A stretch of DNA of 64,000 nt from Candidatus Nomurabacteria bacterium RIFCSPHIGHO2_02_40_30 (GCA_001785445.1 MFTV01000010.1:101566-165565), one strand, 5' to 3'. Shown: positions 41,944 through 62,008, counted from the first letter of the stretch. Notes: generated from the letters alone by a model not told the origin. A program made the numbers and translations.

Positions 41944-43674
41944 ATGATAAGAAAAATGTTCAAAAAAAAGAATAGTGACAAACACTTTTTCGTGGAGCCC
42001 GACGAGATTTTTCTTGACTCAAAAAATTTGCAAAATTTTGACCGTCAGCAATTCGAGGGACGAATAGAAAAATCAATACCTAAAAAGAACATTTTATTTC
42101 TTGGGATTTTATTCCTGCTTTTTTCTGTAACATTTGGCAGCCGTCTGATATATCTGCAAATCCAAAAAGGGGAAGCGTACTTGAAAAGAAGCGAAAATAA
42201 TATTTTAGACAAAGTTATTATCTTTACCGAGAGAGGAATAATCTATGACAGAAATAATGTAAAGCTGGCTTGGAACAGTAGAAATTCGGACGTTGGACGT
42301 CTGAATTCCGGACGTCCAACGTCCGAATCTGAAAACATGCCTATTCGCACATACATGTCACCCGGATTTTCTCATGTATTGGGTTACGTTAGTTACCCAG
42401 CCAAAGACAAGGACGGCAACTATTGGCAAACTGAATTTATGGGTAAAGACGGCTTAGAAAAAGAATACAACGACAAAATCAAAGGAGAAAATGGCTCAAA
42501 AATAATAGAAATAAATGCGTTAAAAGAAATAAATTCCGAAAATATCATAAACATTCCAAAACGAGGGAATAACTTGGTTACAAGTATTGACTCAAAAATT
42601 CAGAAAGAATTGTTTACTTTAATTAAAAATCTGGCAGAAAATAATAACTTTACCGGTGGAGCTGGGATAATAATGGATGTCAGAAATGGAGAAATACTGA
42701 CTTCTACCAGCTTCCCAGAATATAATTCCGAAACTTTATCTCTTGGAGAAGATATATCAGCGATCAATAAGTATATAAACGATAAAAGAAAATTCTTTAT
42801 GGATAGAACTGTTTCCGGACTTTATACTCCAGGCTCGATCGTTAAGCCATTTTTCGCGCTTGGAGCTCTAACTGAAGGCATTATTGACCAATATAAAAAA
42901 ATTCTTTCGACTGGTTCCATCTCAATCCCAAACCCTTATTTTAAAGACCAAAAGACTGTTTTCAAAGACTGGAGAGTAAACGGCTGGACAGATATGAGGG
43001 AGGCTTTGGCTGTTTCTTCTGATGTTTACTTTTACTCTATTGGCGGGGGCTACGGCGACCAAAGAGGCCTTGGTATAACCAATATTGGCAAGTATGCCAG
43101 CCTCTTCGGCATTGGAGAAGCAACTGGGATTGATTTGCCGGACGAAAAAAAGGGCACCATCCCGTCTCCGCAATGGAAAATAGAAAATTTTCAAGGAGAC
43201 CCTTGGCGCATTGGAGACACTTATCATACGGCTATCGGACAATATGGATTCCAAGTTACTCCGGTAGAAATAGTCCGCGCCGTAGCGGCTATAGCAAGTT
43301 ATGGCAAAATGTTAACTCCGCATTTTATACTCAATGACAAAGAAAAGGAAAATAAAACTTCTACAGTCAACTTAAAAAAAGAATACTTTGACATTGTGCG
43401 TGAAGGAATGAGAAAAGCAGTGACAACGGGCACGGCGACAATACTGAATGTGCCCTATGTGCATGTCGCTGTGAAAACCGGAACAGCAGAGCTCGGAGTG
43501 GCTAAAAATAAAGTGAACTCTTGGGTGATGGGCTTCTTGCCGTACGAAGACCCTAAGTACGCTTTCGTGATTATTATGGAGTCGGGCCCCTCGACCGGCG
43601 GCGCTAATGCGTCTTCTGTCATGCGAGGTCTCTTGGACTGGATGTACCTTAACACACCGGAATATTTCGATTAA
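41944..43674 (+). CDS. mrdA: penicillin-binding protein 2 (class B transpeptidase)
   Basis: N-terminal anchor, SxxK (GSIVKPF), SSD(VYF) and KTGTA. Confidence 0.85.
   Translation: MIRKMFKKKNSDKHFFVEPDEIFLDSKNLQNFDRQQFEGRIEKSIPKKNILFLGILFLLFSVTFGSRLIYLQIQKGEAYLKRSENNILDKVIIFTERGIIYDRNNVKLAWNSRNSDVGRLNSGRPTSESENMPIRTYMSPGFSHVLGYVSYPAKDKDGNYWQTEFMGKDGLEKEYNDKIKGENGSKIIEINALKEINSENIINIPKRGNNLVTSIDSKIQKELFTLIKNLAENNNFTGGAGIIMDVRNGEILTSTSFPEYNSETLSLGEDISAINKYINDKRKFFMDRTVSGLYTPGSIVKPFFALGALTEGIIDQYKKILSTGSISIPNPYFKDQKTVFKDWRVNGWTDMREALAVSSDVYFYSIGGGYGDQRGLGITNIGKYASLFGIGEATGIDLPDEKKGTIPSPQWKIENFQGDPWRIGDTYHTAIGQYGFQVTPVEIVRAVAAIASYGKMLTPHFILNDKEKENKTSTVNLKKEYFDIVREGMRKAVTTGTATILNVPYVHVAVKTGTAELGVAKNKVNSWVMGFLPYEDPKYAFVIIMESGPSTGGANASSVMRGLLDWMYLNTPEYFD
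42284..42328. repeat. perfect 18-bp inverted repeat (9-nt loop) embedded in frame in mrdA
   Basis: ATTCGGACGTTGGACGTC-tgaattccg-GACGTCCAACGTCCGAAT. The GGACGT unit occurs four times. Confidence 0.9.
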
Positions 43675-56476: not shown

Positions 56477-56571
56477 TTATATATAGGATAACAAGTATAT
56501 TAGTAGAAGTTAAATTTTTTAACATTAACACTGTTATTGCAACTTTTTGTTAAATCTATTAGAATATCAGC

Positions 56572-57237
56572 ATGATAAAAATACAGTCAGCTGTGCGAGA
56601 TATAGTGCTAGAAGAAATAGAGGCTTATTTTGCCCTAACCAACGGCTACATGAATATGAGCAGTTATGCGTACCGGATAAAGTCAAAGGTAGAGTTACTC
56701 ACAAAAAAGCACACAACTATAGCGAGTTTGGTGGTTTCCCTCTCCCGCCTTGCGAAAGAACTGAAAAAAGAGAGACCGCTGATACATAAAGTAGCAATAA
56801 AAAATATTACTACCAAACTTCCACTCACGGAGATAGCTTATGAAAATAGTACCAAATTCATTGAGAAGTTGGAATCATTGCATAAAAATATTTCTGTATC
56901 TGCAGAAGACTTTTTTACTACAACTATTGGCACCACAGAAATCGATATTATTTGCTCGTCTAATCTGGAGGCTAAAATTTTGAAACATTTCACTATGAAA
57001 CCGAAGTGGGTAAACCATAACTTTGCCGCCATCGGAGTTTCTTACGGTCCGGAAGTTTTCGGCACTCCAAATGTTTTTTTCTCCCTTCTCTCGGTAACTG
57101 CTCGCGCCCGCATCAACATAGAAGAGCTGGTCTCCACGCCCACCGAGCTCATCTTCATCGTGGCCGAAGCTGACTTCGGCAGAACCGTGGCTCTGTTTTC
57201 AGAGTTGCACAGAGAAGTAAACAATGATAACCTATAA
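56572..57237 (+). CDS. free-standing ACT-like protein, paralog 2
   Basis: Gap-free alignment to 50140-50799 (about 55-60% identity by eye). First gene of the rpsU-ybeY-ftsA unit. Confidence 0.6.
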   Translation: MIKIQSAVRDIVLEEIEAYFALTNGYMNMSSYAYRIKSKVELLTKKHTTIASLVVSLSRLAKELKKERPLIHKVAIKNITTKLPLTEIAYENSTKFIEKLESLHKNISVSAEDFFTTTIGTTEIDIICSSNLEAKILKHFTMKPKWVNHNFAAIGVSYGPEVFGTPNVFFSLLSVTARARINIEELVSTPTELIFIVAEADFGRTVALFSELHREVNNDNL

Positions 57238-60392: not shown

Positions 60393-61364
60393 ATGACTTA
60401 CGATTTAATTATTATCGGGGGTGGACCGGCCGGCGCGGCGGCGGCAGTTTACGCTGCTCGTAAAAGACTACAGACGCTCTTTATTACCAGCGAGTGGGGC
60501 GGGCAAAGTGTAGTCTCCGAGCAAATTTACAACTGGATTGGCACCACTTCCCTCTCGGGAAATGAATTAGCAGAAAATTTTAAAAAGCATGTATTGGCAA
60601 ATGCCATAGGTACTGAAAACCTGAAAGAGGCTGAAGATTTGGGCTCTACGCTTTTAGTAAAAGAAGGTGAAAAAGTAATTTCTCTCACAAGGACAGTCCT
60701 TGAAAATTCCTTTGAAGTTACAACAGAAAATGGCGAGAAATTTTTAGCTAAGACAATTCTAATAACTAGCGGCAGCGGTAGAAGAAAACTTGAGGCAAAG
60801 AATGCCGACAGACTAGAACATAAAGGACTCACTTACTGCGCCTCTTGCGACGGGCCTCTTTTTACCGGTCAGGATGTCGCGGTAGTGGGCGGCGGGAACG
60901 CTGGGTTTGAAACTGCTGCCCAGCTTCTGGCCTATTGTAAATCCGTAACCCTTCTGCACCGTAGTGAGTCTTTTGATAAAGCTGATGAAATTACCGTTGA
61001 TAAAGTTTTGAAAAACCCAAAAATGAAAGCGGTAAAAAATGTGGAAATTTTGGAAATACAAGGCGATAAATTTGTCGAAGGAATAGTATATAAAGACAGA
61101 GCTACCAGCCAAGAAACAGAATTGAAGGTCTCCGGTATTTTCGTGGAAATCGGGCAAATTCCAAATACTAACTTTGTGAAAGATTTGGTTCCGCTTGACG
61201 AAATCGGACGTATAAAAATAAATCCGTTAAATCAAAAAACTTTAGTCCCCGGCATCTGGGCTGCCGGCGACTGCACTGATGTGCTCTATCATCAAAACAA
61301 CATCGCCGCCGGTGATGCCGTCCGCGCCCTCGAAGATATTTATTTGGCAATTCATACTAAATAG
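60393..61364 (+). CDS. trxB: thioredoxin-disulfide reductase
   Basis: Start trimmed to MTYDLIIIGGGPAG. Redox motif CASCDG and a second Rossmann motif VVGGGNAG. Confidence 0.9.
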   Translation: MTYDLIIIGGGPAGAAAAVYAARKRLQTLFITSEWGGQSVVSEQIYNWIGTTSLSGNELAENFKKHVLANAIGTENLKEAEDLGSTLLVKEGEKVISLTRTVLENSFEVTTENGEKFLAKTILITSGSGRRKLEAKNADRLEHKGLTYCASCDGPLFTGQDVAVVGGGNAGFETAAQLLAYCKSVTLLHRSESFDKADEITVDKVLKNPKMKAVKNVEILEIQGDKFVEGIVYKDRATSQETELKVSGIFVEIGQIPNTNFVKDLVPLDEIGRIKINPLNQKTLVPGIWAAGDCTDVLYHQNNIAAGDAVRALEDIYLAIHTK

Positions 61365-61396
61365 TTACGTAATCTATTACGTAATACATTACGTAA
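61365..61396. promoter_or_regulatory. three TTACGTAA octamers spaced by 4 nt
   Basis: TTACGTAA-tcta-TTACGTAA-taca-TTACGTAA-CCAA. Same 32-nt architecture as 45898-45929. Confidence 0.7.
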
Positions 61397-61420
61397 CCAA
61401 ATACTTTTCCACAGATTTAA

Positions 61421-61448
61421 TTGACAGGTTTAGATAAAAGCATAAACT
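61421..61448 (+). promoter_or_regulatory. promoter for the riboswitch-led operon
   Basis: TTGACA-N16-TAAACT. Confidence 0.55.
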
Positions 61449-61469
61449 TAGTATGTTCCTTTAATAATT

Positions 61470-61648
61470 TAAAAGAAGTGATTGGGGAAACTGGTTAGAT
61501 TCCAGTACAGTGCCGCTACGGTAAGCCCACGACTTTGTGTCGGGGACAAGTCCGATTACCAATCATTTTTGTTTTTCCCGAGCAGGATATCCTCTTTCGT
61601 TTTTTTACGAAAAAGACTGTAAATTCTGCCCGCAGCAGGATTTTTTTT
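61470..61648 (+). promoter_or_regulatory. cobalamin riboswitch (aptamer plus SD-sequestering / terminator-like hairpin)
   Basis: P1 stem TGATTGG/CCAATCA. Core GGGAAACTGGTTAGATTCCAGTACAGTGCCGCTACGGTAAG. B12-box-like AAGTCCGATTACC. Hairpin AATTCTG/CAGGATT, then T8 directly before the ATG. Confidence 0.7.
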
Positions 61649-62008
61649 ATGTCTAAAAATAATAAAAAATTATATACCGGCCTTGTTATTATTTTACTCT
61701 TTTTTGCTTTTGTTCTAGTTCCCTCTTTTAAAAAAGAAAGTCAGATATCGGATTCAATAATATCCCCTGTAAAATTTGCTCCTAATACTCTTCTGTACGA
61801 TGCTCTGGTGCAAGAAGAAAAAGAAGGTAGAATAGACTTTTCTGGAAAAATGTACCCTAATCTCGGATTTTTTGTAACAGACATTGGAACACTGCATTCT
61901 GGTAACGGTAAAAACCTTATTTATTATATTAACGGCAAAGAAGCGGCTGTCGGCGTTTCTTCCTACAAGCTCAAAGATGGCGACGTCATTGAGTGGAAAT
62001 TGGAATAA
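61649..62008 (+). CDS. membrane-anchored DUF4430 (transcobalamin-like C-terminal domain) protein
   Basis: Start trimmed to MSKNNKKLYTGLVIILLFF. DUF4430-like end LIYYINGKEAAVGVSSYKLKDGDVIEWKL. Confidence 0.75.
   Translation: MSKNNKKLYTGLVIILLFFAFVLVPSFKKESQISDSIISPVKFAPNTLLYDALVQEEKEGRIDFSGKMYPNLGFFVTDIGTLHSGNGKNLIYYINGKEAAVGVSSYKLKDGDVIEWKLE

What the first reader, a model, noticed from the sequence alone, without database searches (positions are those of the whole stretch)
61365..61396. Three exact TTACGTAA octamers on a 12-nt repeat, between the trxB stop and the B12-riboswitch promoter
TTACGTAA-tcta-TTACGTAA-taca-TTACGTAA begins on the first nucleotide after the trxB stop. It ends 24 nt before the TTGACA -35 (61421) of the riboswitch-led operon.

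Each octamer is itself palindromic. The 12-nt periodicity places the sites roughly on one face of the helix, as expected for cooperative binding of a dimeric regulator. In RNA, any two copies can pair as an 8-bp hairpin.

The array has the same length, spacing and trailing CCAA as the palindrome at 45898-45929. The two are therefore members of one motif family, linking a ribosomal-protein promoter and a vitamin-uptake operon.
Basis: seen in the sequence. Interest (0 to 1): 0.55.

Follow-up and report, generated by a model that had tools for sequence, protein, structure and literature searches.

The report
Operator array for small AbrB-like regulator
The three TTACGTAA repeats are a real, far-from-chance array of a kind that sits in front of the gene for a tiny AbrB-like DNA-binding protein in many uncultured bacteria, so it most likely marks a target of an undescribed regulator rather than a part of the vitamin B12 switch next to it.

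Summary
Three exact TTACGTAA boxes on a 12-nt period start right after the trxB stop, and 45898-45929 has the same build.

Such arrays are far above chance: 0 expected in the window, and more than 117 loci in 596 Gb against fewer than 2 expected. They occur mainly in Patescibacteria.

The key result is a link to a protein. Eleven array loci lie 5-105 nt upstream of a homologous gene for a roughly 58-aa AbrB/MazE-fold protein. In the reverse test, 68 loci were chosen by that protein alone. Of these, 91% carry at least 2 boxes and 37% at least 3 boxes at 12-bp period just upstream (shuffles: 13.5% and 0%). The box sequence changes between protein subfamilies, in step with a one-residue loop insertion.

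The arrays are therefore most likely operators of an undescribed regulator family.

Site A (rpmA) has the typical layout, with a -10 hexamer 2 nt from the array on both strands. Site B does not. It stays at the trxB stop in close relatives whatever lies downstream, varies between 2 and 3 boxes, and is absent from more distant riboswitch operons. A link to the B12 operon is not supported.

The regulator gene was not found in this genome's available 72 kb.

The parts
61365..61396 (.). Site B: three exact TTACGTAA boxes at 12-nt period (spacers TCTA, TACA). It is a near-perfect 34-nt palindrome and starts directly after the trxB stop.
   Evidence: Close relatives have 2 boxes at the same place.
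45898..45929 (.). Site A: TTACATAA-TACA-TTACGTAA-TGTA-TTATGTAA, a perfect 32-nt palindrome between the divergent rpmA and a 130-aa gene. The outer boxes are an inverted pair around a symmetric central box.
45887..45895 (+). Extended -10-like TGtTAAAAT. It ends 2 nt before site A and reads through the array towards the 130-aa gene.
   Evidence: Sequence; scan.
45932..45960 (-). Promoter-like TTGATT-17-TATATT on the minus strand. Its -10 ends 2 nt before site A and reads through the array towards rpmA.
45607..45879 (-). rpmA (ribosomal protein L27), the probable target gene of site A.
   Evidence: Pfam PF01016, E 2.6e-31.
45947..46339 (+). 130-aa protein with an N-terminal hydrophobic segment (by eye from the translation) and a C-terminal Ada_Zn_binding-like domain. 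It is the second probable target of site A.
60393..61364 (+). trxB-like thioredoxin reductase. Its stop TAG (61362-61364) abuts site B.
61421..61448 (+). Context only: sigma-70-like promoter TTGACA-16-TAAACT of the riboswitch-led operon. It lies 24 nt downstream of the array.
61459..61602 (+). Context only: AdoCbl/cobalamin riboswitch. It is followed by a terminator-like hairpin (61621-61643) and DUF4430 (61649-62008).

Best explanation
**What it is.** Site B and site A are arrays of 8-bp boxes on a 12-bp period. In many bacteria, arrays of this build are the operator of a stand-alone, roughly 58-aa DNA-binding protein with the AbrB/MazE swapped-hairpin fold.

**How it probably works (inferred).**
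- One protein dimer sits on each (pseudo)palindromic box.
- Neighbouring dimers touch across the AT-rich 4-bp spacer, so 2 to 7 boxes are filled cooperatively.
- At the regulator's own gene, at some tRNA genes and at site A, the array begins 2-6 nt after a -10 hexamer and covers the transcription start. Bound protein should therefore repress.

**Site A.** It is a shared operator for two promoters that read through it from opposite sides, towards rpmA and the 130-aa gene.

**Site B.** It has no adjacent promoter.
- It belongs to the 3' end of trxB and was inherited with it in close relatives.
- It gained a third 12-nt unit in this strain.
- Its most likely effect is a protein roadblock or insulator between trxB and the next transcription unit. 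It may instead be a weakly selected extra site.
- It is not part of the riboswitch promoter.

**What is shown and what is not.**
- Shown: the statistical and co-evolutionary link between the protein family and the arrays, and the layouts.
- Inferred: binding itself, its stoichiometry, the sign of regulation, and that this Nomurabacteria genome encodes a TTACGTAA-type member.
For: My composition estimate gives fewer than 2 by chance. Arrays have 3-6 boxes. 102 of 119 lie outside ORFs of at least 100 aa. Spacers vary while the boxes stay constant.

**2. Link to a protein.** Eleven of these loci have the array 5-105 nt upstream of homologous 58-61-aa genes, in MAGs labelled as several different phyla. 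One was scanned directly and hits Pfam PF04014.

**3. Reverse test.** 68 unique metagenome loci were picked by protein similarity only. 62 have at least 2 boxes and 25 at least 3 boxes at 12-bp period within 130 nt upstream. Shuffles give 13.5% and 0%. In 519 kb of these loci, by my reading of the output, about three quarters of the 36 arrays with at least 3 boxes lie directly upstream of the gene.

**4. Co-variation.** Box type differs between subfamilies: TTACGTAA, ATACGTAT, TTACTGAA/TTCAGTAA, CTACTGAG and others. It tracks a one-residue insertion in the loop K-V-GG-K versus K-M-GGG-K. The short loop is seen in 23 of 24 ACGT/AAGT-core cases and the long loop in 24 of 24 others.

**5. Fold.** The AF2 model has pLDDT 81.9 and a beta-beta-alpha-beta-beta core. 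Its best PDB matches are MazE, AbrB-N, SpoVT and VapB.

**6. Layout.** 40 of 72 regulator loci have a strong -10-like hexamer just upstream of the array, 30 of them within -3 to +7 nt. The median distance from array to ATG is 13 nt. The same layout occurs at tRNA-Ser genes (TGCTAGAGT, 2 nt, array) and on both strands at site A.

**7. A regulon-like pattern.** In six MAGs the gene-linked array is found together with further arrays elsewhere.

**8. Same-locus conservation across species.** Five MAGs, each a different species representative, keep the boxes between a NUDIX stop and the ddl start while the spacers change.

**9. Site B itself.** It is kept at the trxB stop in L212 and L213 with intact boxes.
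Against: - No family member is encoded in the window or the 8 kb beyond it, by tblastn and by a profile search with all filters off. The rest of the genome could not be read.
- The one highly prevalent family member from the same study (P0149) belongs to a Staskawiczbacteria genome and has ATACGTAT boxes.
- Most arrays do not abut a -10 hexamer: 18 of 117 against 9.8% at random positions.
- Many arrays lie within 30 nt of gene 3' ends (37 of 102). Convergent contexts number 19 against 8 divergent. A plain promoter operator does not explain this.
- Site B is missing in more distant relatives, so constraint on it is weak or recent.
- In Bacteroidota the same arrays abut MarR-GNAT fusion genes, so another protein could read them there.
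- No binding experiment exists.
Confidence: 0.6

Rival explanations
1. The palindrome acts as nucleic-acid structure. As an RNA hairpin it would end or stabilise the trxB transcript, as a terminator or 3' protector, with no protein reading the sequence.
For: - The array begins at the stop codon.
- Many arrays elsewhere sit 0-30 nt after stops and between convergent genes.
- The RNA folds at -11.6 kcal/mol (site B) and at -13.3 and -16.4 kcal/mol (site A), with z-scores of -3.6 to -5.0.
- Spacers are often complementary: 39 of 100 three-box arrays are full palindromes.
- The window lacks the canonical hairpin terminator that L213 has after the array.
Against: - There is no G+C-rich stem and no T run. 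The terminator scan finds nothing at the array, and the flanks show no T tract.
- In L213, L004, L056 and L039 a separate canonical terminator stands next to the array.
- A structure-only element would keep its pairing, not one octamer across phyla. Here the boxes are invariant, and spacers change without compensation (for example CCTA/TAAA in L070).
- Site A lies between gene starts, where no terminator is needed.
- 10 of 100 arrays have direct rather than inverted spacer repeats.
Confidence: 0.12
2. Site B has no function of its own. It is a by-product of replication slippage and palindrome correction acting on a 12-nt unit, a young or decaying copy of the motif that is tolerated in a gap between genes.
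For: - Copy number differs by exactly one 12-nt unit between the window (3 boxes) and L212/L213 (2 boxes).
- Arrays fade into degenerate units at their ends.
- The site is absent in more distant relatives, including one genome that has arrays elsewhere.
- No promoter abuts it.
Against: - All boxes are intact in three diverged sequences, while the last 60 nt of trxB differ at roughly 15% of positions (my count).
- The position at the stop codon is kept whatever lies downstream.
- A sequence this specific would not arise or persist without the protein that reads it, so this rival concerns the site, not the motif class.
Confidence: 0.15
3. One reading: the array is an operator that puts the B12-riboswitch operon and rpmA into one regulon, controlled from upstream of the riboswitch promoter.
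For: - The motif is the same at both places.
- The array is only 24 nt upstream of a good promoter with 10 of 12 matches.
- An upstream site at about -75 could in principle act on RNA polymerase.
Against: - In L212 an inserted abhydrolase gene separates the array from the riboswitch. In L213 a terminator does so.
- Three more distant orthologous riboswitch-operon locus sets lack the array.
- Site B lacks the layout found at the regulator's own genes, where the array covers the start site.
Confidence: 0.08
4. In this genome a different protein reads the boxes, for example a MarR-type or Fur/Zur-type regulator, and the AbrB-like family is not involved.
For: - No AbrB-like gene was seen in the 72 kb available.
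- In Bacteroidota the same three-box arrays abut MarR-GNAT fusion genes in 7 loci.
- The CGTAAT..ATTACG half-sites resemble the B. subtilis Zur box TCGTAATnATTACGA. This is from memory and is a lead only.
Against: - Arrays with the same TGTA/TACA spacers as Nomurabacteria MAGs (L048, L050, L086) sit upstream of an AbrB-like gene in L127.
- The half-site gap here is 2 nt, against 1 nt in the Zur box.
- No MarR part matched in the window; only a GNAT domain did.
- The co-variation ties the boxes to the AbrB-like loop.
Confidence: 0.05

Closest known systems
MraZ and its operator upstream of the dcw cluster
   Same: - Built from AbrB-like (swapped-hairpin) domains.
- Autoregulated.
- Binds a series of short repeats at a fixed period just upstream of its own gene.

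(All from my knowledge of the E. coli and Mycoplasma MraZ literature.)
   Different: - MraZ is about 150 aa with two domains and forms rings.
- Its repeats are direct GTGGG-type boxes about 10 bp apart.
- Here the protein is 58 aa with one domain, the boxes are 8-bp (pseudo)palindromes at 12 bp, and arrays have an overall dyad.
AbrB / Abh / SpoVT N-terminal domains (Bacillus transition-state regulators)
   Same: - Same fold: Foldseek TM 0.65-0.71 and rmsd 1.6-1.8 to 1yfb, 1z0r and 2w1t.
- Weak profile matches, E 0.06-0.08.
- By my reading of the alignment, the variable loop G-G-K lines up with the AbrB loop whose Arg15 I recall as a DNA contact.
   Different: - AbrB has a C-terminal multimerisation domain and binds loosely defined sites.
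- This family has no extra domain and has sharply defined, periodic boxes.
AbrB-type antitoxins (MazE, VapB, PrlF)
   Same: - Same fold and size range.
- Autoregulation through palindromes in their own promoter (3zvk, 5l6l and 2mru among the fold hits).
- Database names for the family are 'antitoxin component of MazEF' or 'YhaV-PrlF'.
   Different: - There is no conserved partner gene downstream: 58 downstream ORFs fall into 54 clusters.
- There is no C-terminal toxin-binding tail.
- Further arrays lie elsewhere in the same genomes.
MetJ and tandem met boxes (AGACGTCT)
   Same: It works alike. An 8-bp palindromic box is repeated head to tail 2-5 times, with one dimer per box and cooperative filling (my knowledge).
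   Different: - MetJ is a ribbon-helix-helix protein.
- The met-box period is 8 bp with no spacer, against 12 bp here.
Repetitive extragenic palindromes (REP/BIME)
   Same: Short palindromes in gaps between genes, often just after stop codons and between convergent genes.
   Different: - REPs are species-specific and number in the hundreds per genome.
- Here there are two copies per 64 kb, and only the 32-bp core is shared.
- The same octamer recurs across phyla.

Membership tests
Operator arrays of the ~58-aa AbrB/MazE-fold regulator family (defined here) | At least 2 boxes of 8 bp at a strict 12-bp period with AT-rich 4-bp spacers. | tested here: met
   Both window sites have 3 boxes. The same build is found upstream of 62 of 68 family genes.
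Operator arrays of the ~58-aa AbrB/MazE-fold regulator family (defined here) | The box sequence is one used by a subfamily of the protein. | tested here: met
   TTACGTAA arrays precede short-loop members in L019, L020, L040, L049, L067, L074, L108, L120, L127, L159 and L218. L127 has the TGTA/TACA spacers seen in Nomurabacteria MAGs.
Operator arrays of the ~58-aa AbrB/MazE-fold regulator family (defined here) | A family member is encoded in the same genome. | tested here: inconclusive
   None in the window plus 8 kb. The rest of the Nomurabacteria genome was out of reach. P0149 proved to be from another organism.
Operator arrays of the ~58-aa AbrB/MazE-fold regulator family (defined here) | The array starts 2-6 nt after a -10 hexamer and so covers the transcription start. 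| tested here: met
   Met for site A on both strands. NOT met for site B. 30 of 72 regulator loci show this layout.
Operator arrays of the ~58-aa AbrB/MazE-fold regulator family (defined here) | The protein physically binds the boxes. | not testable with these tools
   Support is only indirect: co-variation of a loop insertion with box type.
Intrinsic (Rho-independent) terminator | A G+C-rich stem-loop followed by a run of T. | tested here: not met
   The scan finds none at the array. The stem has 2 G-C pairs per box. The flanks have no T tract. L213 has a separate canonical terminator after the array.
REP/BIME-type repeated palindromes | High copy number and species-specific sequence with conserved flanks. 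| tested here: not met
   Two copies in 64 kb. There is no shared flank beyond a spacer-like YTAA. The same box is found across phyla.
Fur-family Zur box (TCGTAATnATTACGA, 7-1-7) | Inverted heptamers separated by exactly 1 bp. | tested here: not met
   Here the arrangement is CGTAAT-NN-ATTACG, with 2 bp between half-sites. The Zur consensus is from memory.
Type II antitoxin of the AbrB class (for the protein) | An adjacent, co-oriented toxin gene. | tested here: not met
   Downstream genes are unrelated to one another. Examples are Clp_N, MazG-like and RecG.
Phage or mobile-element borne system | Presence in viral contigs. | tested here: not met
   One array and no protein homolog in 2.9 million IMG/VR contigs.

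The most novel reading that the evidence does not exclude
A very widespread family of 58-aa AbrB-fold proteins, found mainly in Patescibacteria, is a previously undescribed regulator. Its dimers would polymerise on 12-bp-period box arrays, with box specificity retuned by a single loop insertion. Beyond repressing its own gene and rpmA and tRNA promoters, arrays placed exactly at stop codons (as at trxB) and between convergent genes would act as protein-dependent, switchable transcription roadblocks. That would be a bacterial counterpart of factor-bound terminators.
Probability: 0.15. Interest if true: 0.8.

Novelty: new variant of a known kind. Interest (0 to 1): 0.58.

Why it matters
I know of almost nothing on transcription control in Patescibacteria (candidate phyla radiation), which cannot be grown alone. 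Three full-text searches for AbrB together with these groups found no paper.

If the reading is right, one small protein family has readable, periodic operators and more than 4,000 sequence clusters. That gives a way to predict regulons in these genomes from sequence alone.

It also offers a simple system for studying how DNA specificity is retuned by a one-residue loop change. The members at gene ends raise a testable question: do these reduced genomes use DNA-bound protein as a boundary between transcription units?

For this window the practical message is narrower. rpmA and its divergent neighbour are likely targets. The B12 operon is probably not.

Tried and rejected
**LexA.** A LexA-like gene lies 6 kb beyond the window. 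Its upstream region has a different inverted repeat (GATAACCT-N10-AGGTTATC) and no TTACGTAA box.

**Literature.** Searches for the octamer gave only primers and unrelated sites. A search for Patescibacteria LexA motifs gave nothing relevant.

**Neighbour-gene enrichment.** Pfam scans of array-flanking genes and clustering of all ORFs of at least 70 aa within 2.5 kb found no common neighbour in Patescibacteria. The regulator is under 62 aa and fell below my ORF cut-offs. It turned up only through a per-protein Pfam scan.

**Finding the regulator of this genome.**
- tblastn and a profile search of the window and L001 gave nothing.
- P0149 is prevalent in the same study, but it is Staskawiczbacteria with ATACGTAT boxes.
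- P0123 and P0093 are other organisms.
- Cluster look-ups gave no organism names for the candidates.

**Canonical terminators next to arrays.** Only 13 of 112 arrays have one, with no direction bias.

**-10 hexamers next to arrays in general.** 15% against 9.8% at random positions, so this is not a general rule.

**Other checks.**
- The weak Rfam Plasmid_RNAIII match over the array (E 0.14, 23.5 bits against a cut-off of 60) is treated as chance.
- L221 is essentially identical to the window around site A (98% mean column identity), so it says nothing about conservation of site A.
- dif/Xer sites, DNA uptake sequences and geminivirus-like nonanucleotide origins were considered from memory. They were dropped because of copy number, spacing or sequence mismatch.

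Full report
**1. The observation**

The sequence is as described. TTACGTAA stands at 61365, 61377 and 61389, with spacers TCTA and TACA. The trxB-like ORF ends ...IHTK* with TAG at 61362-61364. TTGACA follows 24 nt after the array.

The site at 45898-45929 is TTACATAA-TACA-TTACGTAA-TGTA-TTATGTAA, a perfect 32-nt palindrome with the same length, period and CCAA tail.

Chance does not explain this.
- The three-box pattern, even with two mismatches, matches only these two places. It matched none of 100 shuffles.
- A scan for any 8-mer repeated at least three times at a 12-nt period finds only these two sites in the window.

**2. The surroundings**

The window comes from Candidatus Nomurabacteria (GW2011_GWD2_39_12 / RIFCSPLOWO2_02_40_28), a Patescibacteria genome from the Rifle groundwater studies.

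Around site B the order is:
- upstream: ftsA, ftsZ and trxB;
- then a promoter TTGACA-16-TAAACT (61421-61448);
- an AdoCbl riboswitch (61459-602);
- a terminator-like hairpin;
- DUF4430 and a large cobalamin-binding-like protein.

This places the array at about -91 to -60 of that promoter.

Site A lies in a 67-bp gap between rpmA (minus strand) and a 130-aa protein with an N-terminal hydrophobic segment and an Ada_Zn_binding-like domain.

**3. The motif elsewhere**

My composition estimate gives fewer than two by chance.

- By record title, most hits are Patescibacteria. Others are Bacteroidales and MAGs labelled Bdellovibrionales, Chloroflexi and others.
- Arrays have 3 to 6 boxes, and 102 of 119 lie outside long ORFs.
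- The boxes are constant while the 4-nt spacers vary, with consensus TTAA.
- Spacers are inverted copies in 39 of 100 three-box arrays and direct copies in 27. These counts overlap by 17 self-palindromic cases.
- Several MAGs carry 3-6 arrays.
- Five MAGs, each a different species representative, keep the boxes between a NUDIX stop and the ddl start although the spacers differ. This argues for sequence-specific reading rather than mere pairing.

**4. The protein**

A per-protein Pfam scan showed a 61-aa MazE/AbrB-type ORF 8 nt downstream of a four-box array in L020. tblastn with it found homologs directly downstream of the array in 11 of the scanned loci, mostly 5-30 nt away, in MAGs labelled as several different phyla.

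The family has more than 4,296 clusters at 90% identity. It carries only generic names such as hypothetical, AbrB/MazE/SpoVT or 'antitoxin'.

Structure:
- The AlphaFold model has pLDDT 81.9, with an N-terminal helix and a beta-beta-alpha-beta-beta core.
- Its best solved matches are MazE, AbrB-N, SpoVT and AbrB-type VapB.
- Profile matches to AbrB-N are weak, E 0.06-0.08.

Downstream genes are unrelated to each other: 58 ORFs fall into 54 clusters. It is therefore a solo gene, not a classical antitoxin.

It is absent from viral contigs, and only one array occurs there.

**5. The reverse test**

Eighty metagenome loci were fetched by protein similarity alone. Among the 68 unique ones with enough upstream sequence:
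- 62 have at least two boxes at a 12-bp period within 130 nt of the start codon;
- 25 have at least three;
- dinucleotide shuffles give 13.5% and 0%.

In all 519 kb of these loci, by my reading of the output, about three quarters of the 36 arrays with at least three boxes sit directly in front of the gene.

The box is not always TTACGTAA. Subfamilies use ATACGTAT, CTACGTAG, TTACTGAA/TTCAGTAA, CTACTGAG, TAAGTAA, TCCCAGCA and others, always at 12 bp. Non-palindromic boxes are arranged as forward copies followed by reverse copies, so arrays have an overall dyad. Site A (TTACATAA ... TTATGTAA) follows this rule.

Box type tracks a one-residue insertion in the loop between the first two strands. 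The short loop occurs in 23 of 24 ACGT/AAGT-core cases and the long loop in 24 of 24 others. These counts are not corrected for shared ancestry. By my reading of the alignment, this loop lines up with the AbrB loop whose Arg15 I recall as a DNA contact.

**6. Layout and likely mechanism**

- In 40 of 72 regulator loci a strong -10-like hexamer lies just upstream of the array, 30 of them within -3 to +7 nt.
- The array ends a median 13 nt before the ATG.
- The array therefore covers the start site, which is the usual arrangement for negative autoregulation.

The same arrangement recurs elsewhere.
- At tRNA-Ser(GCT) genes in MAGs of Nomurabacteria or similar Patescibacteria it reads TGCTAGAGT, 2 nt, array, then 10-14 nt to the tRNA.
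- At site A, TGtTAAAAT (45887-45895) ends 2 nt left of the array and reads right.
- Also at site A, TTGATT-17-TATATT (45960-45932, minus strand) ends 2 nt right of the array and reads left to rpmA.

Site A thus looks like one operator shared by two promoters that read through it from opposite sides.

**7. Site B in relatives**

Syntenic ftsA-ftsZ-trxB loci were recovered through DUF4430 and FtsZ relatives.

| Locus | Relatedness | After the trxB stop |
|---|---|---|
| L212 | DUF4430 87% identical | TAG-ag-TTACGTAA-tgta-TTACGTAA, then an inserted abhydrolase gene; the riboswitch is 800 nt further on |
| L213 | DUF4430 82% identical | TAG-TTACGTAA-tcta-TTACGTAA, then a canonical G+C hairpin with T run, then the promoter and riboswitch |
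| L214/215 | DUF4430 58% | no array |
| L216/217 | DUF4430 57% | no array |
| L222 | a genome that has arrays elsewhere | no array |
| L209-211 | FtsZ cluster at 90% or more; no riboswitch operon | no array |

The three-way alignment shows that the window has one extra 12-nt unit. It also lacks the 36-nt terminator hairpin of L213.

Site B therefore travels with the end of trxB, not with the riboswitch promoter. It is young or weakly constrained, and its copy number drifts.

**8. What remains unexplained**

- Across all arrays, 37 of 102 flanking gene 3' ends are within 30 nt. Convergent contexts (19) outnumber divergent ones (8).
- In L048 and L050 the array fills a gap of about 40 nt between two stop codons.
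- Only 15% of arrays abut a -10 hexamer, against 9.8% at random positions.
- Only 13 of 112 have a canonical terminator nearby.

A hairpin role is possible on energy grounds (-11.6 to -16.4 kcal/mol). It does not explain an invariant octamer, uncompensated spacer changes, or a separate terminator next to the array. A protein roadblock or boundary function would fit, but it is speculation.

**9. The main gap**

The regulator gene of this genome was not found. My confidence that these two sites are arrays for this protein family rests on three things:
- the motif class;
- the layout at site A;
- identical arrays in related MAGs.

The L127 gene carries the very array seen in L048, L050 and L086.

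**10. Verdict**

The feature is real. It is best read as a member of an undescribed operator-regulator pair within the known AbrB/MazE superfamily.

The proposed tie to the B12 operon does not.

Noticed in passing
L027:6516-6547, L082:1562-1593, L090:7240-7271, L076:2163-2194, L112:5011-5042, L053:6917-6948, L055:772-803: In Bacteroidota, Ignavibacteriales and other non-Patescibacteria records, the same three-box arrays (outer boxes TTATGTAA/TTACATAA/TTATATAA) abut or lie within 60 nt of the start of homologous MarR-GNAT proteins of about 320 aa (split into two ORFs in L112).
   Followed up: partly
L010:1674-1705, L018:7240-7271, L070:180-211, L089:1747-1778, L117:5567-5598: Five MAGs labelled Bdellovibrionales keep a three-box array in the roughly 40-nt gap between a NUDIX gene and ddl. 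The NUDIX stop codon lies inside the first box, and the ddl start is 8-36 nt away by the ORF finder. Boxes are invariant while spacers vary.
   Followed up: partly
L017:1999-2030, L106:7025-7056, L057:3089-3120: In MAGs of Nomurabacteria or similar Patescibacteria (L017 is labelled Saccharibacteria), a conserved extended -10 (TGCTAGAGT) is followed after 2 nt by the array. tRNA-Ser(GCT) then follows 10-14 nt later in L017 and L106, and about 137 nt later in L057. The array would be the pre-tRNA leader and the operator.
   Followed up: partly
window 61397-61420 versus L213:467-520: Relative to L213, the window has lost a 36-nt canonical terminator hairpin (CCCCACA...TGTGGGG plus T run) between trxB and the riboswitch promoter. 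It has gained one 12-nt array unit.
   Followed up: yes
L001:12953-19540 (just beyond the window's right end): An island with a HinfI-type restriction enzyme and N6/N4 methylase, a LexA-like S24 repressor, a TIR-domain protein, a caspase-like peptidase and a large serine recombinase. The LexA-like gene is preceded by GATAACCT-N10-AGGTTATC.
   Followed up: no
window 42284-42328: A perfect 18-nt inverted repeat, ATTCGGACGTTGGACGTC-N9-GACGTCCAACGTCCGAAT, inside the 576-aa ORF at 41944-43674.
   Followed up: no
window 50073-50791 and 56507-57223: Two stretches with 66% DNA identity covering paralogous ORFs of 219 and 221 aa (50140-50799 and 56572-57237). No Pfam family is on record for the second ORF; the first was not annotated.
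   Followed up: no
L201:9970-9997: In Staskawiczbacteria, the family member P0149 is preceded by ATACGTAT-TACA-ATACGTAT. This is an example of a different box type with the same spacer as in the window.
   Followed up: yes
L084:4141-4240: A six-box array is followed by what looks like a truncated copy of the regulator gene (MAKRKTII*), and then by RadC. RadC is also near the regulator in L205.
   Followed up: no
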